The notes under the pieces: model-generated
The model's database searches: none
What the model was told of the DNA's origin: nothing
Seen by the model: only the letters and a program-made list of their open reading frames with translations
Origin: an uncultured bacterium
GTDB lineage: Bacteria > Arandabacterota > Arandabacteria > Arandabacterales > Arandabacteraceae
NCBI GenBank assembly: GCA_964598025.1
Contig: CAZRAU010000001.1
Span: 56,201 to 120,200, forward strand
Length of the DNA stretch: 64,000 nucleotides
Direction: 5' to 3'
Shown: one piece after another, positions 4,589 through 23,101 of the stretch
Position numbering within the stretch: position 1 is the first letter of the stretch
How the letters are laid out: every line of letters starts with the position of its first letter
Program-made: the position numbers and the translations under genes

Positions 4589-4621
4589 CTGGGTTAGGCC
4601 GGGGTAATAACGGAGGTGTGC

Positions 4622-6190: not shown

Positions 6191-6193
6191 GTG

Positions 6194-6934: not shown

Positions 6935-6938
6935 GGTC

Positions 6939-8662: not shown

Positions 8663-8683
8663 GAGGAGTGGCGTAGAGACGAC

Positions 8684-9556: not shown

Positions 9557-9590
9557 CACCGGGTCCTCTAAGGGCCCTGAAAGGGAACGC

Positions 9591-10082
9591 ATGGAGGAAG
9601 AAGCCCTCGAGAGACTCATCGCGATCCTGGGTAAGGAGACGGGGCTCCTACAGCATCTCCACGCGACTCTGGCCGCGCAGCAGAACGCGCTGGTGCAGGG
9701 TAATGTCGAGGAGATAAGGCAGTCGGTTGAAGGCCAGATAGCGACCCTAGGCGAGATCTCAGACCTTGAACGCGAGCGTGGATCACTCCTCGGCGTGATT
9801 CTGTCAGGCGATGGCAAGCAGGATGTGACCTTGAGTCATCTGATCGAAGCAGCGCCTCAGCATGGAGAGCGCCTCCGCGAGGTGCGCTCCGCGCTCAGAG
9901 ATGTGCTTGAAGCCATAGGCACGTTAAACAAGCACAACAGCATGCTCATAGGCCAGTCGCTTTCCTATATCGGTAAGACGCTGAGAATGATCGCCGGGGA
10001 AGATACTTCATCGACCGTATATACGGCAGATGGTGGTGTGACCTGCCCGACCGGCCGGCTGGCCGTGGACAGGAAGATATGA
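9591..10082 (+). CDS. flgN: FlgN-family flagellar export chaperone (putative)
   Basis: A 163-aa helical protein sitting directly upstream of flgK-flgL, as in Bacillus flgN(yvyG)-flgK-flgL-fliW-csrA. Its Leu/Gln-rich pattern is compatible with FlgN. Confidence 0.55.
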   Translation: MEEEALERLIAILGKETGLLQHLHATLAAQQNALVQGNVEEIRQSVEGQIATLGEISDLERERGSLLGVILSGDGKQDVTLSHLIEAAPQHGERLREVRSALRDVLEAIGTLNKHNSMLIGQSLSYIGKTLRMIAGEDTSSTVYTADGGVTCPTGRLAVDRKI

Positions 10083-10113
10083 AACCGGCGGAGACCGGCG
10101 GAAGGAGTCAAGC

Positions 10114-11493
10114 ATGATCGGACTCACAGCGGGACTCGAGATCGCCAGGAAGGCCCTCTCGTCCTACCAGCTTGCCCTGAGTGTTTACGGCAACAACATA
10201 GCCAACGTCGATACGCCGGGTTTCTCGAGAAAGCGTCCTGTCTTCGGCGAGGCCGAGGCCGTGGACCTACCCCTGGGAAGAATAGGTCTGGGTGTGGACA
10301 CGCGGACCATTGAGCGGATGCGCGACATCTATCTAGATGCGGCATACAGGAGAGAGAATACGGCCTACGCAGAGTATGAGAGCCTGGAACAGTGTCTCTC
10401 CGAGGTCGAAATGGCCTTCAGCGAACCCTCGGATACGGGTCTGGGTGATGTCCTGAGGGATTTCTGGGATGCCTGGCAGGAACTTGCCAACCAGCCCGAG
10501 AGCGCGGCGTCGAGGTCGTATGTGGTATCCAAGGCGACATCACTCTCAACCTCGCTCGCCCACACAAGCTCACAGCTTACCCGCATGAGGGAAAACATCG
10601 ACGGGGAGATAGCAGGTATCGTGGGTGACATCAATTCGTTGGCGGAAAGGATTGCCGCCCTGAACGGCAGCATCGTGGAAGCGGAGGTCTCGGGTAACGA
10701 GGCCGGCGATCTCAGGGACAAGCGCGATCTGCTGATAGATGAACTCTCGGGTCTTGCGGAGATTCAGGTTTTTGAGACCAATGATGGGGCGGCCTCGGTG
10801 AAGATCGGGAGCGACAGTCTGGTTGAGCGGAAGACCGCGGTCCTGCTGGGGACGTCGGCACGCGGCGACAACAATATTGTGATCACGGATGTGACTCTGG
10901 GGGCCGGCGACCGCGCCATAAAGATAACGGGAGGCCGGCTGGGAGGGTTGCTCCAGAGCCGGGATGTGACCGTGCCGGAGTATCTTTCGAGATTGGACGA
11001 GATAGCCAAGACCGTCGTGGAAGAGGTAAACCGGGTCCACAGGACGGGATTCGACCTCACAGGTGCGGCGGGGGGCGATTTCTTCGATCCGGACGGGCTT
11101 ACGGCAGCAACGATCCGGGTCTCTGATGCGGTGCGGGCCGATTCCAGCCTGGTTTCAGCCTCAGGAGACGGCACGCCGGGCAGCGGCGCCATCGCGCTCG
11201 CGATCTCCGATCTCAGACTTGCGGGCATCTTCGGGGCCGAAGGGGCCTCGGCCGAGGACTACTACGCTTCGCTGATAGCGGACCTGGGGATCGAGGCCGA
11301 AAGAGCAGTCGAGCAAAAGGAGACGCAGAACCTGCTTCTTACTGAAATCGACTCGAGACGTGAGAGCGTCAGGGGGGTGAGCATCGACGAGGAGATGACC
11401 AATCTGGTCGCCTCGCAGCATGCCTACCAGGCGGCGGCCAAACTCGTGACCGTCATAGATGACCTGATGCAAACCATATTGGCGACGTTCTAG
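10114..11493 (+). CDS. flgK: flagellar hook-associated protein 1 FlgK
   Basis: N-terminal ALSVYGNNIANVDTPGFSRK and C-terminal MTNLVASQHAYQAAAKLVTVIDDLMQTIL are FlgK-like. An RBS AAGGAG is present. Confidence 0.9.
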   Translation: MIGLTAGLEIARKALSSYQLALSVYGNNIANVDTPGFSRKRPVFGEAEAVDLPLGRIGLGVDTRTIERMRDIYLDAAYRRENTAYAEYESLEQCLSEVEMAFSEPSDTGLGDVLRDFWDAWQELANQPESAASRSYVVSKATSLSTSLAHTSSQLTRMRENIDGEIAGIVGDINSLAERIAALNGSIVEAEVSGNEAGDLRDKRDLLIDELSGLAEIQVFETNDGAASVKIGSDSLVERKTAVLLGTSARGDNNIVITDVTLGAGDRAIKITGGRLGGLLQSRDVTVPEYLSRLDEIAKTVVEEVNRVHRTGFDLTGAAGGDFFDPDGLTAATIRVSDAVRADSSLVSASGDGTPGSGAIALAISDLRLAGIFGAEGASAEDYYASLIADLGIEAERAVEQKETQNLLLTEIDSRRESVRGVSIDEEMTNLVASQHAYQAAAKLVTVIDDLMQTILATF

Positions 11494-11506
11494 CCGGGGG
11501 GGTGTG

Positions 11507-12622
11507 ATGCGCGTTACAGGCAATATGATAAGACAGAAGATACTCAACAATAGCAACTCGGCCATGGAGCGGCTTCAGTTTGCTCAAACCCAGCTGGCCA
11601 CGGGCAAGAGCATTCTCAAGCCCTCGGATGACCCCTTGAGTCTTTCCAAGGCCATCCGCACCAGGGCCGTCCTCAGTGACAACGAGCAGTACTTGCGGAA
11701 CATCGAGGACGCGCTCTCGTGGCTCGAGAACACGGAGCCCGAAGTGGACGCCATGGTAACGGTAATAACGGAGCTCAAGGAGATTGCGGTTGAAGGGGCA
11801 AGCGACACCAAGAGTGCCGGCCAAAGGCAGGTCTTGGCCGGCCAGGTGGAAGACTTGATAGAACGCCTGGTGGATCTCGCCAATACCAGGTACGCCGGCA
11901 AGTATGTCTTCGCGGGCACCTATACGACGACGCCTCCTTACAGCACGAGTCACGCGGTTACAGGCGAGACGGTGGGCTTTCCGGATCTCGAGTTTGTCGA
12001 CCTCGATCATGCCGGCATCACGGGAGGCACGGTCACGGTGACGGGGGGAAGTGGTGAGGTATACACGGAGGGGGTGGATTACGAGATCGACGTCACCGCA
12101 GGCCGGATAAGAAGGCTCGAGGGTGGAACAATGGGGGCCGGAGACACTTACTTTGTTTCATATGAGACCGAGGGTATCGCGAGCGTCACGCTCGATGTTC
12201 CCACCACGGCCGGAAACCTCGTAAGGGAAATCGCGCCGGGACTGCAGGAGAAGATAAACACGGGCGGCGAGGAGATATTCTCCTCGCGCGTGGACGTCTT
12301 CGATCTCCTGATACGAGTCAAGAACGATCTCCAGCGAAATGACAGCACGGGCGTGAACGAATCGCTGGATGATATAGAAGCGGCGCTCGATCATGTGACG
12401 TCGGTTTTGAGCGATCACGGCATGAAGCAGAACGCCTTCCAGCTGGCCGAGTCCAGGTTGGAGAGCGAGATGGTGAACCTGGAAGCCCTGATATCAGGCT
12501 ATGAAGATGCCGACATGGCCGAGGTCATGGTGCGGTTTGAGACCGAGCAGATGGCCTATGAATCCGCCCTTGCAGCGGCCTCCAAGATCATGAATACGAG
12601 TTTAATCAACTTCATAACCTGA
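11507..12622 (+). CDS. flgL: flagellar hook-associated protein 3 FlgL
   Basis: N-terminal MRVTGNMI...LQFAQTQLATGK and C-terminal flagellin-like helix. 371 aa. Confidence 0.85.
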   Translation: MRVTGNMIRQKILNNSNSAMERLQFAQTQLATGKSILKPSDDPLSLSKAIRTRAVLSDNEQYLRNIEDALSWLENTEPEVDAMVTVITELKEIAVEGASDTKSAGQRQVLAGQVEDLIERLVDLANTRYAGKYVFAGTYTTTPPYSTSHAVTGETVGFPDLEFVDLDHAGITGGTVTVTGGSGEVYTEGVDYEIDVTAGRIRRLEGGTMGAGDTYFVSYETEGIASVTLDVPTTAGNLVREIAPGLQEKINTGGEEIFSSRVDVFDLLIRVKNDLQRNDSTGVNESLDDIEAALDHVTSVLSDHGMKQNAFQLAESRLESEMVNLEALISGYEDADMAEVMVRFETEQMAYESALAAASKIMNTSLINFIT

Positions 12623-12661
12623 GCCGGTCGGCCGGACGGCTGCAGGAAAGGAGCCTGGACC

Positions 12662-13222
12662 ATGAAAATCAATACATCGCGCTTCGGCGGGATCGAGGTC
12701 GAAGATCAGTCGGTTGTGAACATGCCTGAGGGGATGTTGGGCTTCGCCGAGTTCAAGCAGTTTGTGCTTATCCAGCACAACCAGGGATCGCCTTTCCTCT
12801 GGTACCAGGCCGTGGACGAGCCCAATCTCGCATTTGTGATGGTCGATCCCTTCACCTTCTTCCCCGACTATGAAGTGCTGCTCTCGCGTGATGACCTTGA
12901 TGCGCTCGAAGCCGTGGAGCTCGGCAACCTCGCCGTCTTCTCGGTCGTTGTGATACCGGAGAATCCGGAGGACATGACGGCCAACTTGAGAGGCCCTGTG
13001 CTCATAAACGTGGATAAGAAGATCGCCCGTCAGGTGGTCCTTAACGACGAACGCTACTCTCCCCACCAACGCATCCTCGAAACGGTTGGGGGGGCTGGGG
13101 AGGGCCTCGCCCCGGGGGGAAGCGGCGGGAGTGCCTTCGCAGGCAGCGATGCGGGCACACCGGTGGGTGGCCGGGCCGTGGGTGTGTGTGGCGCCGGCAT
13201 GCGCGACGGCGGGGGTGAGTGA
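12662..13222 (+). CDS. fliW: flagellar assembly factor FliW, with an unusual Gly-rich C-terminal tail
   Basis: The FliW core is FGGIEVEDQSVVNMPEGMLGF...PFLWYQAVDEPNLAFVMVDPF. The last ~45 aa (GGAGEGLAPGGSGGSAFAGSDAGTPVGGRAVG...) are low complexity. Confidence 0.85.
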   Translation: MKINTSRFGGIEVEDQSVVNMPEGMLGFAEFKQFVLIQHNQGSPFLWYQAVDEPNLAFVMVDPFTFFPDYEVLLSRDDLDALEAVELGNLAVFSVVVIPENPEDMTANLRGPVLINVDKKIARQVVLNDERYSPHQRILETVGGAGEGLAPGGSGGSAFAGSDAGTPVGGRAVGVCGAGMRDGGGE

Positions 13223-13557
13223 TGCTTATCCTCAAGCGCAAGATGGGAGAGGGAATAGACGTAGGGGACAATGTACGCATTGTGCTCAAGGAGATAAGCG
13301 GAGGTCATGTCAAGATAGGAATAGAGGCCCCCACCGATATCAGAGTCAAACGCAGCGAGACCGCCACGAGCATAGAAGCGGAAAACCTGAGGGCGGCCAA
13401 GTCATGCCTCGCGGTAGCCAAAGACCTCGGCTGCCTGGATGGCATAGCCAACGTGAACCGATTGGAATGTGGAAAGGCCGAATGCCCAATGGGGGAGGCG
13501 GGCGGACTGCACCACGGCGAGGGTATCCGGAAAGCAAGAGGGGGGCCCGATGCTTAG
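13222..13557 (+). CDS. csrA: carbon storage regulator CsrA (FliW-partner type, extended Cys-containing C-terminus)
   Basis: MLILKRKMGEGIDVGDNVRIVLKEISGGHVKIGIEAPTDIRVKRSE is a classic CsrA fold sequence. The ATG overlaps the fliW stop (TGATG). At 111 aa it is much longer than typical CsrA. Confidence 0.85.
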   Translation: MLILKRKMGEGIDVGDNVRIVLKEISGGHVKIGIEAPTDIRVKRSETATSIEAENLRAAKSCLAVAKDLGCLDGIANVNRLECGKAECPMGEAGGLHHGEGIRKARGGPDA

Positions 13558-14755
13558 GCGCGACTGCAGGCACTTCCCGGGCGATAGGCCGTGCGGCTTC
13601 CACAAGCAGGATCTTGCGACCTGCGAAACCTGTAGCCATTACGCCCCCCGGGGCACGACGATCCTCATAATAAAGCTCGAAGCCTTGGGCGACGTACTTC
13701 GGACAACGTCGGTTCTCCCGGCGCTCCACCGACAATACGACCCTTGTCACATTACCTGGATCACCTCAGGCGCCGCGCGGGACCTCTTTGCCGGCAACCG
13801 CCTGGTGGACAAGGTCATATCCGCTTCTGATGACTACCTCCCGACGCTCTTAAGCAGGACCTTCGATGTGGTGATAAACCCCGATGCCGCGGCACGTCCA
13901 TGCGAACTTGCCGCCATCTCGCGGGGGCACACGGCTTTCGGCTACCGGGCAGGTCCCGAAGGTATCGTCGTGGCCCTGAACAGGGCCGCGGACCGTTGGT
14001 TGGAGATGGGTGGTTGTGACGCGGCGAAGCGGAGTAACACCAAGACGTATCAGCAAATACTTCACGAGATCTGTGCGCTGGCCCCCAAAGGTCAGCACAT
14101 CGTGCTGAATCTGACCCAGGACGAGGCCGGAGCAAGAGAGGATCTCGCCCGGGAGATCGGGATAGATGTCACACGACCGGTCGTTGGGCTCAATACCGGA
14201 GCCGGCAAGCGGTGGAAGCTCAAGAAGTGGAGGACCGAAGGGTTTATTGAACTCATAGAGATGATCCTCGATGGGTCCGATGCCCAGGTGGTCTTGTTGG
14301 GTGGGGAGCTCGAGGGTGGGAGAAACGCCTTCATGAAGTCGAAGTTCGACCGGAGGGTGAGAAACCCTGTCTCGCGCAGTATAAGGCGCTTCGTACGCAC
14401 GGTCGATCTGTGCGACGCAGTGGTAACAGGCGACACGCTCGCGCTCCATGCGGCACTGGGCCTCAAGAAACGTGTGGTGGCGCTGTTCGGTCCCACATCT
14501 GCGGCCGAAATCGATATGTATGGACTGGGCATCAAGGTGGTCCCGGATATCGACTGCGTCTGCTGCTATAGCACCGACTGTGACAGGGAACCCAACTGCA
14601 TGGATGTCATAAGCGCGGATGAGGTATACGAGCATCTCTTGGACGAGATGAAGATTGCGGCCTCCGGACGAAGTGTGGACCGGATCGCCGAAGTGGGCGA
14701 TGTCCGGAGTGATGGGGAAGCATGTATGGTTGGCGAGCCAATTGCGGATTGGTGA
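13550..14755 (+). CDS. GT9-family (heptosyltransferase-like) glycosyltransferase with Cys-rich N-terminal extension
   Basis: ILIIKLEALGDVLRTTSVLPAL...LNTGAGKRWKLKKW...VVTGDTLALHAALG matches GT9/ADP-heptose transferase motifs. The N-terminus reads CRHFPGDRPCGFHKQDLATCETCSH. The ATG at 13550 follows AGAGGGGGG and overlaps the csrA stop. Confidence 0.75.
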   Translation: MLRRDCRHFPGDRPCGFHKQDLATCETCSHYAPRGTTILIIKLEALGDVLRTTSVLPALHRQYDPCHITWITSGAARDLFAGNRLVDKVISASDDYLPTLLSRTFDVVINPDAAARPCELAAISRGHTAFGYRAGPEGIVVALNRAADRWLEMGGCDAAKRSNTKTYQQILHEICALAPKGQHIVLNLTQDEAGAREDLAREIGIDVTRPVVGLNTGAGKRWKLKKWRTEGFIELIEMILDGSDAQVVLLGGELEGGRNAFMKSKFDRRVRNPVSRSIRRFVRTVDLCDAVVTGDTLALHAALGLKKRVVALFGPTSAAEIDMYGLGIKVVPDIDCVCCYSTDCDREPNCMDVISADEVYEHLLDEMKIAASGRSVDRIAEVGDVRSDGEACMVGEPIADW

Positions 14756-14854
14756 GCTATGATCCGGCCGATCCGACTCCCCTTTTGTGCCTCGCCAACC
14801 TATCCATATTAGGACGCCGGGCAGCTCGTGACAGCCCGGGATGGAAGGAGCCCA

Positions 14855-15967
14855 ATGGAGTTTACCGGAGAGCGCTACGTACCCGGAGCGGCAGGGCAGG
14901 AAGAGATTTATGTCGAGCATATGAGCCGCTATCGGTTTGCGGAAGGCCTGGCCGGCGGGCGGTGGGTGCTTGATGTCGGCAGCGGTTGCGGTTACGGCAC
15001 GTATCATCTGGCCACGGTGGGTGCAGGTCTCGCGCTGGGGATCGACATCTCCCCCGAGGCCGTGGCCTACTCCCGGAGCAATTATCGCCATCCCCGCCTG
15101 TGTTTTGCGGTGATGGATGCCTCACGGCTCAGGCTGAGGAGCGGGTTCCATCTTGCAACCTGTTTCGAGCTCATAGAGCACGTGGAAGATGCTCAGGTTG
15201 TGCTCCAGGGTGTTCATGAGGTGCTGGATGAGTCGGGTGTCTTCGTCGTCTCCACGCCCAACAAGGCGACCTATGTGGCAGGCGGCGAAGCTGGAAAGAA
15301 CCCCTTTCACGTGAGGGAATACTATCGTGAGGAATTCAAAGATCTTCTTGGGAGTGTATTCCCTTCGGTGCGGGTTCTGGGCCAACACTGGGTCGAGGGC
15401 ATGGCCCTGAGGCCCCACCCGGTCCTGGAGGGTCGTGATGTGGTGAGGGCGGCAAGCCTGCGGATTGCCGGGGGCGGAACTGCCATCCCCATGACCGACG
15501 GGGCTGCTTCGGACCCCGCCTGCAGGTGCGCGACGGCCGGCGAGGCCCATTCGAATTGCGCTGCGTGCGGGGAACCGCCGTACTTCATAGGTCTCTGCGC
15601 CAAGAACGATATTCTCGATGACGTCATCCGCAAGCTCAATCCCTTGGCCTTCTACGGTAGGGCCCTCAGATACGAGAGCCTGAAAGCTGCCGCCATGCGA
15701 CTGGAGCGCGAATTCGACCGGAGAGGCGAGTGGGCAAGGGGGCTGGACCGGGAGATCGGCTCGAGGGACGAAACGATACGCAGCCTCCAACGCGAGCTCG
15801 CAGAAGTGCGAAACGAATTCAATGAACGCGGCCGGTGGGCCGAGCGCCTGAACGGCGAGCTCCGCCGATCCGGCGCTCTGGTGGAGAGATTCGCCGAGGA
15901 GAACAGACATTTGAGGGAATCGCTGGCGGCCCGGCGACCGGCCGGCAGGAGCAAGGTGGCAAAATGA
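14855..15967 (+). CDS. class I SAM-dependent methyltransferase with C-terminal coiled-coil
   Basis: The start MEFTGERYVPG and the SAM motif VLDVGSGCGYGT are present. An RBS GGAAGGAG precedes it. The C-terminal ~100 aa are a repetitive coiled-coil (RGEWARGLDREI / RGRWAERLNGEL). Confidence 0.75.
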   Translation: MEFTGERYVPGAAGQEEIYVEHMSRYRFAEGLAGGRWVLDVGSGCGYGTYHLATVGAGLALGIDISPEAVAYSRSNYRHPRLCFAVMDASRLRLRSGFHLATCFELIEHVEDAQVVLQGVHEVLDESGVFVVSTPNKATYVAGGEAGKNPFHVREYYREEFKDLLGSVFPSVRVLGQHWVEGMALRPHPVLEGRDVVRAASLRIAGGGTAIPMTDGAASDPACRCATAGEAHSNCAACGEPPYFIGLCAKNDILDDVIRKLNPLAFYGRALRYESLKAAAMRLEREFDRRGEWARGLDREIGSRDETIRSLQRELAEVRNEFNERGRWAERLNGELRRSGALVERFAEENRHLRESLAARRPAGRSKVAK

Positions 15968-18900
15968 AGCAGCCGACGGTCATATCGATACTTGCACTCA
16001 ACAATCTTGCGCTCACCAAGCAGTGTCTCGAGAGCATCTTCGAGAATACGACCGCGCCCTATGAGGTCTGCGTCGTCAATCAGGCCTCGGCCGACGGAAC
16101 CAGGGAGTATCTTGACAGTCTGGAGGATAAGATAGATGCGGTACATCTACCCAAAAACGTCGGTTTCATAGGCGGCAACAACCTGGTCATGGATCGCTAC
16201 CCGGACCGGGACATCGTTCTGCTCAATAACGACACGCTGGTGGAGAAGGGTTGGCTGAAGGCCCTGGAAGGATGTGCCTACAGCGACTCGAGCATAGGCA
16301 TCGTGGGGGCGAAGCTCGTCTATCCCGGCGGCAAGCTCCAGGAAGCCGGCGGCGAGATATTCAAGGATGGTTCGGGCAGAAACATCGGGAAGAACGATGA
16401 TCCCGAGCGGCATATATATAATGTATGTCGTGATGTCGACTACTGCTCGGGAGCATGTCTTTTCGTAAAACGGGTCGTGCTGGACAAGGTAGGGTATCTT
16501 GATGAGATCTTCAGCCCCGCCTACTGGGAAGACACCGATCTATGCTTCAGGGCCAGAAAAGCCGGCTGGCGCGTGGTTTATGAGCCCGATTCCAAGGTAA
16601 TGCACCTGGAGGGCGCGACCGCCGGTTTGCCCGGCCGGAAGTCACTTTCCGAGAGCCTCCAGCAACGCAACAAACCTAAGTTCATGGCCCGGTGGGGCGA
16701 GGAGCTCATGTCCCACCGCAGCAATGTCTTTGAGGTAAGGCCCCGGTACGGGAAAGAACAGATCCTCGTGGTGCTGCCCTTCCTCCCCATGTATGACCGT
16801 GCAGCCGGCGAGAAGAGGTGGTTCCATACGCTGAAGATCCTTACCCGGCACTTCGATGTCACCTTTCTGGCGCGAAACGGCGCGGGCCAGCTCAAGTATA
16901 TAAACGACCTGGAGAAGATGGGCATCACCGTTTTTCATACCGACCAATCACGCCTCGAGCCCATGGGCTGCTCTGAGAAGGGCCCGCTCCGGATCGACTT
17001 TCCCTTGCTGCTAAAGTCCAACGACTTCAAAGCCGTAATCGTCGGGTTCTATCATATGGCGCACCAGTACTACCGCGACATTCGCGAGCACTCGCCCCGA
17101 AGTGTGCTGATCGTGGATTCTTACGATCTTTGCTGGATACGCCAGCGGCGCAAGGCGGACTTGACCGGTGAGGCCGGTGATATCTGGGAAGCGCTCGAGG
17201 TGAAACGCCGGGAGATCGCCATGTACGGCAAGACCGATATGGTGCTTACGGTGACCGAAGAGGACAGGCTACGGCTCTTGCAGGAGCTCCCGGGTCTGAG
17301 CGTAGGTATTTCTACGGACATACACCCTCTCACCGGTGAATGCCGGGAGGGACGCGGCCGCGACCTGGTTTTTGTGGGTAACTACAAACACGATCCGAAT
17401 GAGGACGCCGTGCTTCACTTCGCGCGCGAAATCTTCCCCCTGATAAGAGATGCGATTCCCGGGATCAGGCTCTATGTGGTAGGCAATTCCCCGACACCGC
17501 CGGTCGAGGCCCTTGCATGTGACGATATCATCGTGACCGGCTTCGTGCCCGAGGTGACGCCCTACCTGCTTGAATCACGGGTGTTCGTGGTGCCGCTTCG
17601 TTACGGCGCAGGCTTGAAGGGCAAGATCGGAGAGGCGCTTGCCGCCGGCATCCCGATCGTGACCACCTCGATAGGTGCGGAGGGGATGAACCTCCTCCAC
17701 CGCAAGAACGCCATGATAGGCGACACGCCTGAGGATTTCGCCAGGTGTGTCGTCGAGGCATACACGGATGACGCTCTCTGGGACACGCTTTCCAGCGAGG
17801 GGAAGCGCCTGGCCGATGAGAGCTATAGCGTCCGGGCGGTCGAGAAACACTGGCTGGAGATAATAGACTTCATTCGCGACGGGAGAAAAACACGGGAGAA
17901 GCCCGACCGGGGAGCTGGTACGGCAGGCAAGCGCGCCGGGTCGCCGGGCCGCGGCTTCAAGCGGACCACGGCACCACCTGAGATCGTGCCCGACGTGGGC
18001 ATAGTGATTCCCGTCTTTAACAACCTGGACCTGACCAGAACCTGCTGGACCAGTGTGAGGAAAAGTACCGGGATTCCACACCAGGTCGTCATAGTGGATA
18101 ACGCATCCACCGAGGATGTCGCCTATGAAGCCGATCAGAACAACCTCGAAGTGATTAGGAATGAAACCAACCGTGGCTTCGCATATGCATGCAACCAGGG
18201 GATAATGCATACCCACGGCGATTTCGTAGTGATCCTCAACAACGACACCATAGTCACTCCTGGCTGGCTTGAGCGGCTGATGTGGCACATGGGTGATGAT
18301 CCGGACATGGGCATCCTCGGGGTCACGACCAACTATGCGGGGAGCGAACAGCAGATCCCGGCTACCTATGAGACTGAAAGGCAACTCTACGATTTCAGCG
18401 AAGAGATCTACCGGAAGAACCGTCACCGCAGGAAGGAAACAGGCAAGGTGGTCGCCGTCTGTGTCGTGTTAAGACGTAAGATGCTCAGAGATGTGGGGCT
18501 CTTCGACACCCGGTTCGGTCTGGGCAACTTCGAGGATGACGACATCTGTCTGAGGGCGAGGCTCGCCGGCTACAAGGTGGCTTTTGCCAGGGATGTGTTC
18601 ATCCACCATGCCGGCAGTAAGACCTTCCAGGTGCTCAAGCTTGACTATGGCCGCCTGATGGAGGAGAACCGCAGACGATACGAGGCCAAGTGGGCGCCGC
18701 TGGCCCGTGAGTTCTGCCGCTGCGACGCCGGGGACATGGCCGAGACCGGGCCCGAGAGAAGCCACCTGACCTGCATGGATGCAAGACAGAACGAGTGCGC
18801 CGACCACCCCGAAGGCGGGCCCATCATCAGCCTGGCTGACATTCAGATTTCTGCGGATGAGACTTTGGCAGGTCACCTCGTCAACAGGGTGCGGGGTCTG

Positions 18901-19926
18901 GACGCGAACACGGCCTTCTTCCTGGCACCCGGGACCGTCGCGCCCCCCGGCTGGACTTCCGTGCTTGAGGCGGCCCTGACGGCTGACGGCGTGGGCTGTG
19001 TTCTGGCTGCGTCCAACAAGGGTCTTGGCGAGGACCTTGTAGAGCCGGGCTATCGCAAGCTCGGCAAGCCATTTGTCAGGTTTGCCGCCAAGCATGCGAA
19101 GGCATGGCAAGGCCGGATACAGAGTATAGAGATGGGCTTCCCGGCCGCCATGGCCATAAGCAAGGACGTCCTTCTCAAGTACGGTCTGAGCGATGAATTC
19201 AACACACCGGGAATCCTCCTCGATCTCCAACGGAAGCTGGCGGACGCCGGGCTGCGCATCGTCTGTGCGAAGGAGACCTACGTCCATGCCGCCGACTTCG
19301 CGACCGAGGAAGCCGCGAAGGAGATGGAGGCCGTCCTCCAGCTCCTCGCAGCCAGGAAGTGCTTGGGCGAGGAGAAGTCAGTGCAGTCGCTGGGGGCCCT
19401 TGACCAGGCTCTGGCCGCCAAAGACGACTATACGGAAGCCCTCTACGAGAGAGGTCTCGTGTTTTCGCTCATGGGCAAGAAGCGACAGGCGATCGCCGAT
19501 TTCGAGAGGGTGCTTGATCTCAAGCCGTCCGATTCGCGGGCCGTAAACAATCTTGGATGCCTCCACTTCGAGATGGGAGACCAGGCCGAAGGCGAACGCA
19601 GGTTCCGGGACGCGATCGGGGCCGATGCGGGCAACTGGGAAGCCAGGAAGAACCTGGCGGATCTGCTGCTCTGCCGGGGCGACTCGGACGAGGCCATCGA
19701 GATATATGCTTCACTGATTCAAGAACATGGAGAGCGGCCAGGAGTCTATGCATCCGTAGGGGAGGTCTTCGCCAACCTCGGAGATCTGGAATCCGCCGGG
19801 CACCTGTTTGAAATGGCGCTCCGGATCTTCCCTGAAGACGAAGCTGCCCGGCGAGGCCTCCTTGCGGTCCAATCGGCGATGTCGACCACGAACCAAGCAG
19901 GAAGGAGCCAAATCGATGAGGGATAA
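15964..19926 (+). CDS. 1321-aa multidomain glycosyltransferase: GT2 + GT-B (GT4-like) + GT2 + uncharacterised region + C-terminal TPR repeats
   Basis: ATGA start/stop overlap with the methyltransferase. GT2 module 1 (SILALNN...DTDLCFRARKAGW) covers about 15.97-16.63 kb. A GT-B/GT4-like module (VGNYKHDPNEDAV...GLKGKIGEALAAGIPIVTT) covers about 16.75-17.9 kb. GT2 module 2 (VGIVIPVFNN...FEDDDICLRARLAGY) covers about 18.0-18.6 kb. TPR repeats (AEYNERGLVF...) cover about 19.35-19.9 kb. Confidence 0.8.
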   Translation: MKQPTVISILALNNLALTKQCLESIFENTTAPYEVCVVNQASADGTREYLDSLEDKIDAVHLPKNVGFIGGNNLVMDRYPDRDIVLLNNDTLVEKGWLKALEGCAYSDSSIGIVGAKLVYPGGKLQEAGGEIFKDGSGRNIGKNDDPERHIYNVCRDVDYCSGACLFVKRVVLDKVGYLDEIFSPAYWEDTDLCFRARKAGWRVVYEPDSKVMHLEGATAGLPGRKSLSESLQQRNKPKFMARWGEELMSHRSNVFEVRPRYGKEQILVVLPFLPMYDRAAGEKRWFHTLKILTRHFDVTFLARNGAGQLKYINDLEKMGITVFHTDQSRLEPMGCSEKGPLRIDFPLLLKSNDFKAVIVGFYHMAHQYYRDIREHSPRSVLIVDSYDLCWIRQRRKADLTGEAGDIWEALEVKRREIAMYGKTDMVLTVTEEDRLRLLQELPGLSVGISTDIHPLTGECREGRGRDLVFVGNYKHDPNEDAVLHFAREIFPLIRDAIPGIRLYVVGNSPTPPVEALACDDIIVTGFVPEVTPYLLESRVFVVPLRYGAGLKGKIGEALAAGIPIVTTSIGAEGMNLLHRKNAMIGDTPEDFARCVVEAYTDDALWDTLSSEGKRLADESYSVRAVEKHWLEIIDFIRDGRKTREKPDRGAGTAGKRAGSPGRGFKRTTAPPEIVPDVGIVIPVFNNLDLTRTCWTSVRKSTGIPHQVVIVDNASTEDVAYEADQNNLEVIRNETNRGFAYACNQGIMHTHGDFVVILNNDTIVTPGWLERLMWHMGDDPDMGILGVTTNYAGSEQQIPATYETERQLYDFSEEIYRKNRHRRKETGKVVAVCVVLRRKMLRDVGLFDTRFGLGNFEDDDICLRARLAGYKVAFARDVFIHHAGSKTFQVLKLDYGRLMEENRRRYEAKWAPLAREFCRCDAGDMAETGPERSHLTCMDARQNECADHPEGGPIISLADIQISADETLAGHLVNRVRGLDANTAFFLAPGTVAPPGWTSVLEAALTADGVGCVLAASNKGLGEDLVEPGYRKLGKPFVRFAAKHAKAWQGRIQSIEMGFPAAMAISKDVLLKYGLSDEFNTPGILLDLQRKLADAGLRIVCAKETYVHAADFATEEAAKEMEAVLQLLAARKCLGEEKSVQSLGALDQALAAKDDYTEALYERGLVFSLMGKKRQAIADFERVLDLKPSDSRAVNNLGCLHFEMGDQAEGERRFRDAIGADAGNWEARKNLADLLLCRGDSDEAIEIYASLIQEHGERPGVYASVGEVFANLGDLESAGHLFEMALRIFPEDEAARRGLLAVQSAMSTTNQAGRSQIDEG

Positions 19927-21376
19927 GCCGACGCTTGCCGTGTGTATGATCGCTCGGAACGAGGGTAAGAGGCTTCCTACCGCCATAGACAGTGTCAGGA
20001 GGATAGCCGACCAGGTGATAGTCGTTGATACGGGTTCCACGGACGACACGATTGAGGCGGCGCGCTCCCTCGGGGCGGAAGTGGTCGAGTATGCCTGGAA
20101 AGACGACTTCGCCGATGCACGGAACAGGTCACTCGCAGAGGCCCGATGTGATTGGATCCTGTGTCTGGATGCCGACGAGTGGGTTGCACCGGAAAGCGAA
20201 TCCAAGGTGATTGAAGCCCTGTCGGAGGGGGCCGGCGCCTATATGGTACGAATCGAAAGCCGGGTCGATTCTACGGCAGGCAAGGTGTTCGTCAATTTCT
20301 TCCCCAGGCTTTTCCGTAACCTGGAAGGGGTCCGGTTCGAGGGGAAGGTCCATGAACAGGTCGCTCCATCACTCGAAGGCCTTGGTGTGTCGATTGAAGT
20401 CTCCGACATACTGATCAAGCATACGGGCTATGCCCTCTCGGACTCAGACCTTAAGGCGAAGGCCCGTAGAAACGCCGACCTGCTCCTGAAGGATGTGGAG
20501 GAGCATGCCGATGACGCGCTAGCCCTCTTCCACCTGGGCGAAGCCTTCTCAATGCTCGAGCACTTCGAGGAGGCAGTGGAATTTTATGACAGAGCGCTCG
20601 CGGCGGGTGGCCTCGACGGCATAGTCCGCGGTGCCCTGCTCCAGAACAAGGGCACGGCACTTGTGAAGCTCAAGGACTACGAAAAGGCGATCGTCTCGCT
20701 AAGGCAAGCCCGCGAGGTCGATCCCGGGTTGCTCACGGTCCACCTGGTTTTGGCATCGGCCCACTATGGCATGGGGAAGTTCAAGCGGGCGGAACAGGAG
20801 GTGATCTCCTATATCTCCATATGCCGTGAGATAGGACGGGTTAAGCGGATAACCCTCGGGCATGACCCCGACATTCCCAATGCCCTGGTCATGCTCGCCA
20901 GGTGCCGGCTTGCGCTGGGCCGGCTCGACGAGGCAAGGAAGGCTCTCGAGGATGCACTGAGCCTGGATGGGTCTAAGGGTGATGCCCACATGCTCCTGGG
21001 AAGGATAGCTTTTGAGGAGCTCAGGTTCGGCCGGGCGGCGGCCCACTTCGAGAAGGCGGTTGACGCCTATCCCGGCGGAGAGAGGCTTTACTTCGAGCTG
21101 GCCCGGGCATATGTGGCCTGTGGTTCCAACGACAAAGCGATCCGGACGCTGGACAGCGCGATAGAGAACGGAATGGAAGGGGCCGATCTTCTGAGGTGTC
21201 TCGGGGTCCTCAAGATAAAGCAGAAGGATTTCGAGGGTGCGATAGATGCCTATCGCCGGACGCTGGACGTCGATCCCGGCGATGCCGACTCGCGGAAGAA
21301 GCTCGCCGGACTGTATCATGCCCTGGGCAAGACCAATCTTGCGGAAGCAACCCTTGCCGGATGGTCGGGCCGGTGA
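19916..21376 (+). CDS. GT2-family glycosyltransferase with C-terminal TPR domain (GmaR-like architecture; putative flagellin glycosyltransferase)
   Basis: LAVCMIARNEGKRLP...VIVVDTGSTDDT...DWILCLDADE is GT2 with a DxD-like motif. The C-terminal ~250 aa are TPR repeats. An RBS AGGAAGGAG precedes it, and it overlaps the upstream gene by 11 nt. Confidence 0.8.
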   Translation: MRDKPTLAVCMIARNEGKRLPTAIDSVRRIADQVIVVDTGSTDDTIEAARSLGAEVVEYAWKDDFADARNRSLAEARCDWILCLDADEWVAPESESKVIEALSEGAGAYMVRIESRVDSTAGKVFVNFFPRLFRNLEGVRFEGKVHEQVAPSLEGLGVSIEVSDILIKHTGYALSDSDLKAKARRNADLLLKDVEEHADDALALFHLGEAFSMLEHFEEAVEFYDRALAAGGLDGIVRGALLQNKGTALVKLKDYEKAIVSLRQAREVDPGLLTVHLVLASAHYGMGKFKRAEQEVISYISICREIGRVKRITLGHDPDIPNALVMLARCRLALGRLDEARKALEDALSLDGSKGDAHMLLGRIAFEELRFGRAAAHFEKAVDAYPGGERLYFELARAYVACGSNDKAIRTLDSAIENGMEGADLLRCLGVLKIKQKDFEGAIDAYRRTLDVDPGDADSRKKLAGLYHALGKTNLAEATLAGWSGR

Positions 21377-21515: not shown

Positions 21516-21542
21516 TAAAGTAATTCGCAAACCTTGCGATAG
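21516..21542 (+). promoter_or_regulatory. sigma-28 (FliA)-type promoter candidate for the flagellin gene
   Basis: TAAAGT, then a 15-nt spacer, then GCGATAGG. The consensus is TAAA-N15-GCCGATAA. It lies about 215 nt upstream of the flagellin ATG, and the leader is rich in GGA/AGGAAG motifs. Confidence 0.5.
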
Positions 21543-21757
21543 GTCATACGGGAGTTGGATTAAAGGCCGTATAAGGGATCATCCTATGTGCAAAGAACCG
21601 TGGATCGAAAGGAGGTGGGTTCTTTACTTGCCTGCACCTACCTGGTGCGTATTCCGTCCATCTTCAGGAAGTAGAACCTTGGTGCCGGTCATGAAGGCCG
21701 GATCCCAAGCAGGCAAGGAAGCCCCGAGGTCAAGACGATCAAAAGGGGGTTGTTGAA

Positions 21758-22600
21758 ATGGCGAATGCCGACCTCAGTCGTATTAACGCAAACATTGGTG
21801 CGTTGAACGCTCTTAACGCGCTCCGCGACGTCAATCAGAAACTCGCCCTGCATCAGCTCAGGCTGGCGACGGGCAAGAAGATCAACTCGGCCGGCGATGA
21901 TCCGGCGGGTATGACCTTCGCAAAGAAGCTGGATTCCAGGGCGAGAGGCCTTGCCGTCGCCCGCGACAATATCGGCGACGTTCAGAATCTTATGGCGGTT
22001 GCCGAGGGCGGTATCGAGAACATCAGTGAGATTCTGATCACCATGAAGGAGAAGATCCTTCAGGCCGCCAACGATACCATCGGTACCTCCGAAAGAGCTG
22101 CCGTCGAGAGCCAGCTGGATGACCTGGCCGCCGAGATCGACCAGATCGTAGCCTCCACCACATGGGGCGGCGTTACGCTTCTGGATTCCACATACACCGG
22201 CAAGCAGTTCCAGGTCGGCGAGCAGACTACCGATACGCTGAGTTTCTCAATAAGCCAGAATCATCAGGCTGCTTCTCTCAGTGTTGCGGATGCGAATCTG
22301 GACGTGACTACCAGTGCGGCGGCATCGACTTCGCTGAGCAATGTCAATACGGCCATCGACACCATAAACACGAGCCTTCAGTCGATAGGTTCGGTGTCTT
22401 CACGGATGTCGATCAAAGAGGCCAATATCTCTGTCGCCATCACCAACGTGACCGCATCCTATAGCCGTATTTTCAATGCGGACATGGCGAGCGAACAGCT
22501 CGAGGCCACAAAGTACCTGGTCCTGCAGCAGACGGCTACGGCCATGCTTGCTCAGGCCAACCTTGCTCCTCAGAGCATACTGCAACTGATCACCGGTTAA
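21758..22600 (+). CDS. fliC: flagellin (short, 280 aa; Ser/Thr-rich central region)
   Basis: The N-terminus LRLATGKKINSAGDDPAGMTFAKKL and C-terminus EATKYLVLQQTATAMLAQANLAPQSILQLI are flagellin N and C helices. An SD AAAGGGGG precedes it. Confidence 0.9.
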   Translation: MANADLSRINANIGALNALNALRDVNQKLALHQLRLATGKKINSAGDDPAGMTFAKKLDSRARGLAVARDNIGDVQNLMAVAEGGIENISEILITMKEKILQAANDTIGTSERAAVESQLDDLAAEIDQIVASTTWGGVTLLDSTYTGKQFQVGEQTTDTLSFSISQNHQAASLSVADANLDVTTSAAASTSLSNVNTAIDTINTSLQSIGSVSSRMSIKEANISVAITNVTASYSRIFNADMASEQLEATKYLVLQQTATAMLAQANLAPQSILQLITG

Positions 22601-22741: not shown

Positions 22742-23101
22742 GTGAACCAGAACGGAATCGATACTTACAGGACGAACCAGGTGTTGGGAGCCTCTCCCGG
22801 ACAGCTGGTTCTCTTGCTTTATGACCACGTAATCCGGTGCCTCAAGAACGAGGACATGCGGGGGGCCAGCAAAGGTCTGGTGGAACTCATGGGCTCCCTG
22901 GATCTTGATTACCAGGAGGTCTCAGGCAGGCTCTTCAGCCTCTACGAGTATTGTCTCGACATGGTGAAGAAGAGCGAATACGAACAGGCCTCGAAGATCC
23001 TGACTGAGATGAGACAAATGTGGGCTGCCGCCATCGGCAGGATGGCAAACCAGGAAGAAAACACCCTGAAAGACAAGGAGCCGCAGAATGTCGAGTCTTG
23101 A
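22742..23101 (+). CDS. fliS: flagellar export chaperone FliS
   Basis: YRTNQVLGASPGQLVLLLYDHVIRCL is a FliS signature. 119 aa. Confidence 0.85.
   Translation: MNQNGIDTYRTNQVLGASPGQLVLLLYDHVIRCLKNEDMRGASKGLVELMGSLDLDYQEVSGRLFSLYEYCLDMVKKSEYEQASKILTEMRQMWAAAIGRMANQEENTLKDKEPQNVES

What the first reader, a model, noticed from the sequence alone, without database searches (positions are those of the whole stretch)
13550..14755. GT9 (heptosyltransferase-family) enzyme inside a flagellar operon, with Cys4/His N-terminal extension
GT9 enzymes normally act on LPS inner core. Here one is translationally coupled to csrA and sits upstream of the flagellin-modification GTs. Its N-terminus CRHFPGDRPCGFHKQDLATCETCSH looks like a small metal-binding knuckle that standard heptosyltransferases lack.
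Basis: partly seen in the sequence, partly recalled or inferred. Interest (0 to 1): 0.55.

Follow-up and report, generated by a model that had tools for sequence, protein, structure and literature searches.

The report
Two-cysteine-knuckle GT9 glycosyltransferase in flagellin-glycosylation operon
A sugar-transferring enzyme of the family that normally builds the lipopolysaccharide core sits between the flagellin regulator csrA and flagellin-glycosylation genes, and it belongs to a large uncharacterised branch of that family carrying two conserved four-cysteine (probably metal-binding) motifs.

Summary
ORF 13550-14755 (+), 401 aa, is a GT9 enzyme (Pfam 45 bits against a cutoff of 22). Its ATG overlaps the csrA stop by 8 nt. 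It lies in flgK-flgL-fliW-csrA-GT9-methyltransferase-giant GT2/GT4/GT2-TPR-GT2-TPR-fliC.

The whole block, including the tight csrA/GT9 junction (-32 to +15 nt), recurs in 11 related loci from two phyla: 7 from the window's unclassified lineage and 4 from Candidatus Eisenbacteria.

The N-terminal C-x8-C-x9-C-x2-C motif is real and about 99% conserved.
- A second Cys4 motif, C336-x2-C339-x4-C344-x5-C350, aligns with the four iron-ligand cysteines of TibC.
- Both motifs mark a large clade (about 1,650 50%-identity clusters). Its members mostly lie in non-flagellar GT4-GT9-methyltransferase-YfhO-Wzx loci, or are fused to methyltransferase, GT2 or GT-C domains.

By sequence, fold and tree the protein is neither WaaC/WaaF/WaaQ nor BAHT/TibC. 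All five WaaC catalytic and ADP-heptose-contacting residues are kept.

Best reading: a cytoplasmic glycan-building transferase, probably a heptosyltransferase, recruited to flagellin O-glycan synthesis and co-expressed with csrA. Donor, acceptor and metal are untested. It is a new variant of a known kind and of moderate interest.

The parts
13550..14755 (+). GT9-family glycosyltransferase gene (401 aa), a member of the two-Cys4-motif clade
   Evidence: Pfam PF01075 at 45 bits. More than 1,270 homologues. AF2 model pLDDT 86 with a GT-B fold; the best PDB matches are 3TOV, WaaF and WaaC.
13550..13657 (+). N-terminal extension (residues 1-36) with the Cys4 motif C6-x8-C15-x9-C25-x2-C28 inside the conserved DCRHFPGDRPCxxHK...CxxC
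   Evidence: Each Cys is at least 98% conserved over 315-322 aligned sequences. The extension is absent from WaaC/F/Q/U. It is genuinely absent in some family members such as P0256.
13691..13693 (+). Codon of D48 in the GDVLRTT motif, aligned with the catalytic base D13 of E. coli WaaC
   Evidence: Invariant in the family and aligned with WaaC D13. The role of D13 is taken from PMC3559599.
14432..14449 (+). D295-T-L-A-L-H300, the family's version of the heptosyltransferase signature D(T/S)(G/A)xxH
   Evidence: D295 and H300 are invariant and align with WaaC D261 and H266. The third position is L or M instead of G or A.
14555..14599 (+). C-terminal Cys4 motif C336-x2-C339-x4-C344-x5-C350 (DCVCCYSTDCDREPNCM), positionally equivalent to the TibC iron finger
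   Evidence: 94-99% conserved. Kept in members that lack the N-terminal knuckle. Aligns with TibC C339/C342/C358/C370.
14726..14752 (+). C-terminal tail MVGEPIADW, following a low-confidence linker
   Evidence: A (M/L)VGEP tail recurs in part of the window-lineage flagellar clade only. pLDDT is below 50. Its function is unexplained.
13222..13557 (+). csrA (111 aa; the CsrA domain is residues 1-51, followed by a roughly 50-aa C-terminal extension); its stop overlaps the GT9 start
   Evidence: Pfam CsrA E=5e-17. The overlap is read. The junction is conserved in 11 loci.
12662..13222 (+). fliW, the CsrA antagonist and flagellin partner
   Evidence: Pfam FliW E=1e-38.
14855..15967 (+). Class I SAM-dependent methyltransferase directly downstream of GT9
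   Evidence: Pfam Methyltransf_25/11/31. A methyltransferase at position +1 recurs in 34 non-flagellar loci and is fused to GT9 in P0256.
15961..19926 (+). Giant GT2-GT4-GT2-TPR glycosyltransferase
   Evidence: Pfam domains. Conserved in all the flagellar loci.
19916..21376 (+). GT2-TPR glycosyltransferase, the candidate flagellin-directed transferase
   Evidence: Pfam GT2 plus TPR. The best NCBIfam match is the SunS peptide S-glycosyltransferase at 4e-24, which is below that model's cutoff.
21516..21541 (+). Sigma-28-like promoter TAAAGTAATTCGCAAACCTTGCGATA upstream of fliC
   Evidence: The same motif lies at -237 to -243 in 4 relatives. This is a consensus match only.
21712..21723 (+). GGCAAGGAAGCC, a small hairpin with a GGA loop in the fliC leader; a CsrA-site-like element
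   Evidence: Conserved in both phyla upstream of fliC. The CsrA-site assignment is inferred.
21758..22600 (+). Flagellin (280 aa), the presumed target of the glycosylation cassette
   Evidence: NCBIfam flagellin models. 71-91% identical in the syntenic loci.

Best explanation
The gene encodes an active, inverting GT-B glycosyltransferase of family GT9. It belongs to a distinct, widespread clade defined by two independent Cys4 (probably metal-binding, structural) motifs: one N-terminal, and one inserted near the C-terminus at the position of TibC's iron finger.

Across the clade the enzyme is one step in a multi-enzyme glycan assembly line. It is habitually paired with a GT4 and a SAM methyltransferase.

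In the window's lineage and in Candidatus Eisenbacteria the gene has been placed in the late-flagellar operon, directly behind fliW-csrA and ahead of a methyltransferase, a GT2-GT4-GT2-TPR protein and a GT2-TPR protein. There it most likely adds one sugar, probably a heptose from ADP-heptose, to the O-glycan that these enzymes build on flagellin in the cytoplasm before export. The TPR-bearing GT2 most likely makes the first, protein-linked sugar.

Overlap with csrA ties the enzyme's synthesis to the same transcript as the flagellin translation checkpoint.

Shown: family, fold, conserved catalytic residues, conserved cysteines, synteny. Inferred: metal binding, donor, acceptor, cytoplasmic flagellin glycan.
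For: Family and fold:
- GT9 HMM hit.
- AF2 GT-B model with pLDDT 86 whose best PDB neighbours are GT9 structures at E about 1e-15 to 1e-16.
- The WaaC key residues D13, K192, E222, D261 and H266 align with the invariant or near-invariant D48, K225, E255, D295 and H300.

Cysteine motifs:
- Eight cysteines are 94-100% conserved over about 320-340 sequences, and 274 of 355 aligned segments carry all eight.
- Members that truly lack the N-terminal extension keep the C-terminal Cys4, so the two motifs are separate modules.

Synteny:
- The block flgK-flgL-fliW-csrA-GT9-MT-bigGT-GT2TPR-fliC is conserved in 7 loci of the window's lineage and 4 Eisenbacteria loci.
- The csrA/GT9 junction is -32 to +15 nt in all 11.
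- No consensus terminator stands out within the block; the count equals the shuffle expectation.
- fliC has its own conserved sigma-28-like promoter.

Glycan-assembly role:
- In the non-flagellar loci (about 70 of the 81) a GT4 lies at position -1 in 55 loci, a methyltransferase at +1 in 34 loci, and YfhO and Wzx follow.
- Fusions exist to a methyltransferase (P0256), a GT2 (P0264) and a GT-C domain (P0205).

Protein-directed step:
- The GT2-TPR neighbour resembles the SunS peptide glycosyltransferase.
- TPR domains confer flagellin binding in FlmG, according to the abstract of PMC7591256.
Against: - No biochemical evidence exists for donor, acceptor or metal.
- The heptosyltransferase signature deviates at its third position (L or M instead of G or A).
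- No ADP-heptose pathway genes are in the 64-kb window, and the rest of the genome could not be inspected.
- Most clade members lie in loci with a Wzx flippase or GT-C enzymes. That points to lipid-linked rather than protein-linked acceptors, so the ancestral acceptor is probably not flagellin.
- The geometry of the cysteines in the AF2 model could not be measured, because coordinates are not exposed.
- Joint monophyly of the two flagellar clades has only 34% NJ bootstrap support.
Confidence: 0.55

Rival explanations
1. The enzyme is a direct protein O-heptosyltransferase of flagellin, a functional analogue of the BAHT enzymes TibC and AAH. Its Cys4 finger or fingers would grip the protein substrate.
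For: - The C-terminal Cys4 aligns with the four iron ligands of TibC, followed by a similar C(M/T)x(V/L)I(S/T)xxxV segment.
- In TibC the iron finger contacts the TibA substrate and is needed for activity (PMC4358343).
- The gene lies about 7 kb upstream of flagellin in a conserved cassette.
Against: - There is no significant sequence relation to TibC: the profile search does not find it at E<=10 and hhalign probability is 0.11%.
- Foldseek gives E=5e-8 and TM 0.49 for TibC, against 4e-16 and TM 0.66 for 3TOV.
- There is no N-terminal beta-barrel.
- The clade is mostly found with Wzx, YfhO or GT-C partners.
- Two neighbouring GTs carry TPR domains that are better candidates for flagellin recognition.
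- MAFFT tends to align cysteines with each other, so the four-Cys match is only suggestive.
Confidence: 0.17
2. The enzyme acts on an envelope glycolipid or lipid-linked glycan (LPS core or another surface polysaccharide) and is merely carried in the flagellar operon. Expression would be linked but flagellin would not be the target.
For: - GT9 is classically an LPS-core family, and the WaaC residues are conserved.
- The organism is diderm, with FlgH and FlgI L- and P-ring proteins.
- The wider clade sits in Wzx/YfhO/PMT_2-type loci.
Against: - The position between csrA and the methyltransferase/TPR-GT genes is kept in 11 loci of two phyla whose GT9 proteins are only 44-59% identical.
- The flagellar cassette has no flippase, ligase, initiating phosphoglycosyltransferase or Kdo/lipid A genes.
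- NCBIfam HepI, HepII and HepIII scores are far below their cutoffs.
- The family is separated from WaaC/F/Q/U in the tree.
Confidence: 0.2
3. The cysteine motifs are redox- or iron-sensing. The enzyme, or a moonlighting form of it, would feed back on the FliW-CsrA-flagellin checkpoint.
For: - The csrA/GT9 overlap is conserved.
- Eight conserved cysteines could bind Fe or Fe-S.
- CsrA carries an unusual C-terminal extension here.
Against: - The same cysteine motifs occur in hundreds of members with no flagellar or csrA context.
- The catalytic residues are intact.
- Nothing shows an interaction.
- The CsrA extension is not conserved in length across relatives.
Confidence: 0.05

Closest known systems
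LPS inner-core heptosyltransferases WaaC and WaaF (E. coli; PDB 2GT1/2H1H, 1PSW) and the uncharacterised Veillonella parvula GT9 (PDB 3TOV)
   Same: Same Pfam family and GT-B fold. These are the best sequence-profile and Foldseek matches: 3TOV 6e-24, WaaF 5e-16, WaaC 2e-12, with TM 0.56-0.66. The catalytic base and the ADP-heptose-contacting residues are conserved.
   Different: - About 15% identity.
- NCBIfam equivalog thresholds are missed by a factor of 2.5 to 6.
- An extra 36-residue N-terminal Cys4 extension and a C-terminal Cys4 insertion, both absent from WaaC/F/Q/U.
- The signature is DT(L/M)xxH rather than D(T/S)(G/A)xxH.
- The gene context is flagellar or GT4-MT-YfhO-Wzx, never Kdo/lipid A genes.
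Bacterial autotransporter heptosyltransferases (BAHT: TibC, AAH), which are iron-containing dodecamers (PDB 4RAP, 4RB4; PMC4358343)
   Same: - A GT9-like GT-B core.
- A Cys4 motif inserted near the C-terminus of the C-lobe at the same place in the chain; the four cysteines align with TibC C339, C342, C358 and C370.
- A possible protein-glycosylation context.
   Different: - No detectable sequence homology beyond the local segment.
- A lower structural match.
- The loops of the finger are much shorter (x2, x4, x5 against x2, x15, x11).
- No N-terminal beta-barrel, and a second N-terminal Cys4 motif instead.
- The partner gene is not an autotransporter.
- The oligomeric state and the metal are unknown.
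Flagellin glycosylation cassettes placed beside late flagellar genes (for example the C. difficile fliW-csrA...fliC-glycosyltransferase region; Caulobacter FlmG, a TPR-GT)
   Same: Glycosyltransferase and methyltransferase genes are embedded between flgK/flgL/fliW/csrA and fliC. There are TPR-bearing GTs next to flagellin. These systems appear in the papers retrieved.
   Different: No GT9-family enzyme and no cysteine-knuckle GT turned up for such cassettes in the six full-text searches. The cassette contains no nonulosonic-acid (Pse/Leg) biosynthesis or Maf genes.

Membership tests
CAZy GT9 / Pfam PF01075 Glyco_transf_9 | Significant match to the family HMM above the gathering threshold | tested here: met
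   45.1 bits against 22, E=9.9e-12, residues 173-328. All 120 listed homologues carry PF01075.
CAZy GT9 / Pfam PF01075 Glyco_transf_9 | GT-B fold closest to solved GT9 structures | tested here: met
   AF2 pLDDT 86 and pTM 0.85. Foldseek ranks 1-9 are 3TOV, 1PSW, 2GT1, 2H1H, 6DFE and 2H1F.
CAZy GT9 / Pfam PF01075 Glyco_transf_9 | WaaC key residues D13, K192, E222, D261 and H266 | tested here: met
   They align with D48, K225, E255, D295 and H300, which are invariant or at least 90% conserved. The residue list comes from PMC3559599.
CAZy GT9 / Pfam PF01075 Glyco_transf_9 | Heptosyltransferase signature D(T/S)(G/A)xxH | tested here: inconclusive
   The sequence is D-T-L-A-L-H. D, T and H are kept, but the third position is L or M throughout the clade. 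Published variants of the signature exist.
CAZy GT9 / Pfam PF01075 Glyco_transf_9 | Uses ADP-heptose as donor | not testable with these tools
   This needs an enzyme assay. No heptose pathway genes lie in the window.
LPS core heptosyltransferases I/II/III (WaaC/WaaF/WaaQ equivalogs) | Score above the NCBIfam equivalog cutoffs | tested here: not met
   TIGR02193 scores 57.4 against 185.3; TIGR02195 scores 55 against 134.6; TIGR02201 scores 28 against 170.2.
LPS core heptosyltransferases I/II/III (WaaC/WaaF/WaaQ equivalogs) | Groups with WaaC/WaaF/WaaQ in a tree | tested here: not met
   In the NJ tree the Cys-motif family is separated from the E. coli WaaC/F/Q/U group on a long branch, with 76% bootstrap support. 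The outgroup sample is small and the method is NJ only.
LPS core heptosyltransferases I/II/III (WaaC/WaaF/WaaQ equivalogs) | LPS core or lipid A genes in the neighbourhood | tested here: not met
   None appeared among the recurrent neighbour clusters of 81 loci or in the window.
BAHT (TibC/AAH autotransporter heptosyltransferases) | Detectable sequence homology to TibC | tested here: not met
   TibC is not among the PDB hits at E<=10. hhalign probability is 0.11%. No autotransporter-heptosyltransferase NCBIfam hit appears at E<=0.01.
BAHT (TibC/AAH autotransporter heptosyltransferases) | N-terminal beta-barrel domain (TibC residues 1-97) | tested here: not met
   Only 36 residues, mostly coil, precede the first Rossmann strand. 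The barrel is described.
BAHT (TibC/AAH autotransporter heptosyltransferases) | Cys4 iron finger inserted in the C-lobe | tested here: inconclusive
   Four conserved cysteines sit at the equivalent place and align with the TibC ligands. The metal and the geometry were not determined.
BAHT (TibC/AAH autotransporter heptosyltransferases) | Gene adjacent to its autotransporter substrate; dodecameric ring | tested here: not met
   No autotransporter gene lies in the window or in the 81 loci. The oligomeric state cannot be tested here.
Flagellin glycosylation systems | Glycosyltransferase genes co-located with flagellin and late flagellar genes, conserved across genomes | tested here: met
   11 syntenic loci in two phyla.
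Flagellin glycosylation systems | Flagellin demonstrably glycosylated in a manner dependent on the gene | not testable with these tools
   This needs mass spectrometry and genetics.

The most novel reading that the evidence does not exclude
The clade is a previously unrecognised class of metallo-glycosyltransferases with two Cys4 metal sites, one of them homologous to the BAHT iron finger. In the flagellar lineages the enzyme would itself O-heptosylate flagellin, or a flagellin-bound glycan, under the FliW-CsrA checkpoint. That would extend BAHT-type, iron-finger-dependent protein heptosylation from autotransporters of Proteobacteria to flagella of FCB-group candidate phyla.
Probability: 0.15. 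Interest if true: 0.7.

Novelty: new variant of a known kind. Interest (0 to 1): 0.45.

Why it matters
GT9 is treated almost as a synonym for LPS-core heptosyltransferase. The only well-studied exception, BAHT, is a virulence-linked protein glycosyltransferase with an unusual iron finger.

This work shows a large, uncharacterised GT9 clade (about 1,650 50%-identity clusters at E<=1e-30). It carries two strictly conserved Cys4 motifs, one at the BAHT iron-finger position, and it is habitually linked to a GT4 and a methyltransferase.

Two candidate phyla have inserted the gene into their flagellin-glycosylation operon, directly behind csrA. That placement gives a concrete, testable substrate context for an otherwise orphan clade: co-expression with a 280-aa flagellin followed by mass spectrometry.

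It also cautions against the automatic annotation 'ADP-heptose:LPS heptosyltransferase' that these proteins carry. The result is of moderate, specialist interest and does not reveal a new principle.

Tried and rejected
- AF2 coordinates are not exposed. Cys-Cys distances and the position of the knuckles relative to the active site could not be measured. The independence of the two motifs was inferred instead from natural variants that lack the N-terminal one.
- P0151 was first counted as 'N-less'. It is probably a mis-called start, because its first residue is V and a 396-aa member sits in the same cluster. It was not used as evidence.
- An exact look-up of the window protein's contig found nothing.
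- hhalign against TibC is not significant overall. The iron-finger correspondence therefore rests on a local alignment and on MAFFT, and is only suggestive.
- I considered whether the downstream methyltransferases of flagellar and non-flagellar loci are orthologous. They share only 19-26% identity, which is generic class I similarity, so I claim a recurring association only.
- I considered the same question for the upstream GT4 of Ignavibacteria and the GT4 domain of the giant GT. tblastn with the giant GT hit few of those loci, so orthology is not claimed.
- I looked for clade-specific substitutions in the flagellar proteins. Only a handful appeared, for example N276 being lost, and only 4 flagellar rows remained after de-duplication. 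This is too thin to interpret.
- Six literature searches found no description of a Cys-rich GT9 or of a GT9 in a flagellar glycosylation locus. Subscription journals are not covered.
- The alternative upstream GTG start at 13469 was rejected because homologues start at the ATG position.
Full report
**1. The observation**

The + strand ORF 13550-14755 encodes a 401-aa protein. A longer GTG-initiated reading from 13469 exists. The ATG at 13550 is the supported start for two reasons:
- A G-rich Shine-Dalgarno-like stretch precedes it.
- All full-length homologues start about five residues before the first cysteine.

Pfam assigns Glyco_transf_9 (PF01075) with E=9.9e-12 and 45.1 bits against a gathering score of 22.

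The upstream ORF 13222-13557 is csrA (Pfam CsrA, E=5e-17) and the ORF before it is fliW (E=1e-38). The csrA stop codon (TAG, 13555-13557) lies inside the string ATGCTTAG that begins the GT9 gene, giving an 8-nt overlap.

**2. The surroundings**

The window carries a late-flagellar block on the + strand:

| Gene | Coordinates |
|---|---|
| flgF | 4616-5383 |
| flgG | 5402-6190 |
| flgA | 6191-6934 |
| flgH | 6879-7517 |
| flgI | 7532-8662 |
| flgJ-like | 8684-9556 |
| flgN | 9591-10082 |
| flgK | 10114-11493 |
| flgL | 11504-12622 |
| fliW | 12662-13222 |
| csrA | 13222-13557 |
| GT9 | 13550-14755 |
| Class I SAM methyltransferase | 14855-15967 |
| GT2-GT4-GT2-TPR protein (1321 aa) | 15961-19926 |
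| GT2-TPR protein (486 aa) | 19916-21376 |
| Flagellin | 21758-22600 |
| fliS | 22742-23101 |
| fliD | 23088-24506 |
| motB-like | 25875-26624 |
| motB-like | 26614-27378 |

- FlgH and FlgI (L and P rings) indicate a diderm cell.
- No consensus terminator stands out inside the flgK-to-GT2-TPR stretch; the count equals the shuffle expectation.
- fliC has its own sigma-28-like promoter motif. It is conserved at -237 to -243 in four relatives.
- The rest of the window holds no LPS, Kdo or ADP-heptose pathway genes.

**3. Conservation of the arrangement**

A scan of one genome per species found 590 relatives; 80 loci were retrieved. tblastn with the window's flagellar proteins shows the complete block flgJ-flgN-flgK-flgL-fliW-csrA-GT9-MT-giant GT-GT2-TPR-fliC in two groups:
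- Seven loci from the window's own unclassified lineage (L001-L007; GT9 identity 49-83%).
- Four Candidatus Eisenbacteria loci (L018, L020, L045, L058; best-segment identity 44-48%).

In all eleven the csrA stop and the GT9 start lie between -32 and +15 nt of each other. The tight csrA-GT9 junction is therefore a conserved feature, not an accident of this genome.

**4. The protein family**

Size and distribution:
- The word-indexed search found more than 1,272 homologues.
- An exhaustive profile search of 1.84 billion cluster representatives found 1,655 at E<=1e-30, out of 49,187 GT9-like proteins at E<=1e-3.
- The clade occurs in Ignavibacteria and Bacteroidota, Eisenbacteria, Deltaproteobacteria, Nitrospiraceae and a Woesebacteria MAG, among others.

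N-terminal motif:
- The alignment shows DCRHFPGDRPC-x2-HK-x5-C-x2-C, with cysteines at positions 6, 15, 25 and 28.
- Over 355 aligned segments these positions are cysteine in 315/315, 316/316, 316/321 and 319/322.

- The pattern is C336-x2-C339-x4-C344-x5-C350.
- These positions are cysteine in 338/341, 319/339, 337/339 and 335/338.
- 274 segments carry all eight cysteines.

The motifs are independent modules:
- Several members begin directly at the first Rossmann strand, lack the N-terminal extension and still keep the C-terminal motif.
- For P0256 this is genuine, because a stop codon lies four codons upstream of its ATG.
- Each four-cysteine set is therefore sufficient for its own site. Metal binding is inferred, not shown.

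**5. What kind of GT9 it is**

Profile search of the PDB:
- Veillonella GT9 3TOV, 6e-24.
- WaaF, 5e-16.
- WaaC, 2e-12.
- TibC does not appear even at E<=10.

Structure:
- The AF2 model (pLDDT 86, pTM 0.85) is a GT-B fold.
- Foldseek ranks 3TOV, WaaF and WaaC first, at E about 1e-15 to 1e-16 and TM 0.56-0.66.
- TibC follows at E=5e-8 and TM 0.49.

Thresholds and tree:
- NCBIfam equivalog models for heptosyltransferases I, II and III score 57, 55 and 28 bits against cutoffs of 185, 135 and 170.
- In an NJ tree with E. coli WaaC, WaaF, WaaQ, WaaU and TibC, the Cys-motif family forms its own group (76% bootstrap).
- The window-lineage flagellar proteins are monophyletic (100%), as are the Eisenbacteria ones (91%).
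- The two flagellar groups sit next to each other, but that grouping has only 34% support.

Catalytic residues:
- The residues that matter in WaaC are D13, K192, E222, D261 and H266 (PMC3559599).
- They align with D48, K225, E255, D295 and H300, all invariant or nearly so.
- The signature D(T/S)(G/A)xxH reads D-T-(L/M)-x-x-H throughout the clade.

The enzyme is thus very probably catalytically active and GT9-like in mechanism. ADP-heptose is a reasonable but unproven donor.

**6. Relation to BAHT/TibC**

TibC's iron finger is a Cys4 site (C339, C342, C358, C370) inserted in the C-lobe. It is needed for dodecamer assembly, activity and contact with the TibA substrate (PMC4358343).

hhalign of the family against TibC is not significant overall. 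Its only local alignment places C336, C339 and C350 on TibC C339, C342 and C370. A similar C(M/T)x(V/L)I(S/T)xxxV stretch follows.

An independent MAFFT alignment places all four cysteines on the four TibC ligands. TibC has longer loops, and WaaC/F/Q/U have no cysteines there.

This is a positional resemblance worth testing. It does not establish membership. The N-terminal beta-barrel, the autotransporter partner and detectable homology are all missing.

**7. What the clade does elsewhere**

Neighbour clustering over 81 loci shows the following for the non-flagellar loci (about 70 of the 81):
- A roughly 385-aa GT4 lies immediately upstream in 55 loci.
- A roughly 270-aa class I methyltransferase lies immediately downstream in 34 loci.
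- A YfhO-like membrane protein and a Wzx-type flippase commonly follow.

A deltaproteobacterial locus has GT9-GT2-PMT_2-LPG_synthase_TM-radical SAM-DegT.

Natural fusions join the GT9 to three partners:
- A methyltransferase (P0256).
- A GT2 (P0264).
- A GT-C-type membrane transferase (P0205).

The clade is therefore a component of multi-step glycan assembly, recurrently coupled to methylation. The methyltransferases are only generically similar (19-26% identity).

**8. Most likely mechanism in this window**

The flagellar cassette has five GT catalytic domains and one methyltransferase:
- GT9.
- GT2, GT4 and GT2 in the giant protein.
- GT2 in the GT2-TPR protein.
- The class I methyltransferase.

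It has no flippase, ligase or initiating phosphoglycosyltransferase. That pattern is what is expected for stepwise cytoplasmic O-glycosylation of flagellin before export. This expectation rests on established knowledge of flagellin glycosylation and on the FlmG paper retrieved.

The GT2-TPR protein is the best candidate for the protein-directed first step. Its best NCBIfam match is the SunS peptide glycosyltransferase (4e-24, below cutoff). GT9 is best read as an elongating transferase, probably adding heptose, with the methyltransferase decorating the product.

Expression is tied to csrA by overlapping or abutting reading frames. The fliC leader carries a conserved GGA-loop hairpin and a GGA-containing Shine-Dalgarno region in both phyla. 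This is consistent with a working FliW-CsrA-flagellin circuit, which is inferred.

I give this reading a confidence of about 0.55. The rivals are:

| Rival | Confidence |
|---|---|
| Direct BAHT-like flagellin heptosylation | 0.17 |
| An envelope-glycan enzyme merely carried in the operon | 0.20 |
| A regulatory or redox-sensing role | 0.05 |

**9. Novelty and verdict**

Six full-text searches found no description of a cysteine-motif GT9 clade or of a GT9 in a flagellin-glycosylation locus. The library lacks most subscription papers.

The proteins are routinely auto-annotated 'ADP-heptose:LPS heptosyltransferase'. The evidence here does not support that label for the flagellar members.

Its interpretation is partly supported:
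- The flagellar context and the knuckle are real.
- The knuckle is clade-wide rather than flagellum-specific.
- A second Cys4 motif exists.
- The protein is not a BAHT.

This is a new variant of a known kind, with moderate interest (0.45).

Noticed in passing
window 13222-13557: CsrA is 111 aa. The CsrA domain covers residues 1-51 and is followed by a roughly 50-residue C-terminal extension that runs into the GT9 start. The same long form is seen in L002. In other relatives csrA is shorter but still abuts GT9.
   Followed up: partly
window 21516-21541 and 21712-21749: A sigma-28-like promoter (TAAAGTA...GCGATA) lies about 240 nt upstream of fliC and is conserved in 4 relatives. The long leader contains a GGCAAGGAAGCC hairpin with a GGA loop, plus a GGA/GGGGG Shine-Dalgarno region, conserved in both phyla. 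It resembles the two-site CsrA operator of Bacillus hag.
   Followed up: partly
window 14726-14752; also L001, L002, L006, L007 GT9 C-termini: After a disordered linker, part of the flagellar-clade GT9 proteins end in a conserved (M/L)VGEP(G/I).. tail. The tail is absent from Eisenbacteria and from non-flagellar members. It could be a docking peptide, for example for the TPR domains of the neighbouring GTs. It remains unexplained.
   Followed up: no
L013, L023, L027, L028, L039, L052, L056, L066 (about 8000-16000 in each): Ignavibacteria share a conserved cassette GT4-GT4-GT9(Cys8)-methyltransferase-YfhO-like (about 840 aa)-Wzx-small protein. This is an uncharacterised surface-glycan or protein-glycosylation locus.
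   Followed up: partly
P0256 (L086:8001-9863), P0264, P0205: Natural fusions join the Cys-motif GT9 to a zinc-ribbon plus SAM methyltransferase, to a GT2 domain, and to a GT-C (GT87/PMT_2-like) membrane domain. P0171, P0203 and P0244 carry an extra domain of about 100 residues between the N-terminal knuckle and the GT9 core.
   Followed up: partly
window 25875-26624 and 26614-27378: Two tandem, overlapping motB-like genes (MotB_plug plus OmpA). The preceding minus-strand ORF 24919-25728 has no Pfam hit. No motA was recognised nearby.
   Followed up: no
window 27375-32768: A run of HDOD and HD-domain signalling proteins (an HD-GYP-like HD_5+HDOD protein and two further HDOD proteins), a methyltransferase, and a pentapeptide-repeat/ion-channel fusion lie next to the flagellar cluster. 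An MshEN-domain T2SSE ATPase follows at 32765-35197 (-).
   Followed up: no
window 57432-58979 and 60384-63173: Two large secreted-type proteins end in a FlgD Ig-like domain. One is a papain-family (C1) protease of 929 aa. Similar FlgD_ig/Por_Secre_tail ends occur near the Ignavibacteria GT9 loci (L081), in keeping with an FCB-group organism.
   Followed up: no
window 24530-24844: A 104-aa ORF directly after fliD has no Pfam or NCBIfam match. Its position suggests a small flagellar chaperone or regulator (FliT- or FlaG-like).
   Followed up: no
Foldseek hits 9grx_1, 7wff_a, 7f9o_6: A subunit of the plant chloroplast NDH-PSI supercomplex ranks just below the bacterial GT9 structures as a structural neighbour (E=9e-12). 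This suggests that a GT9-like fold is built into that complex.
   Followed up: no
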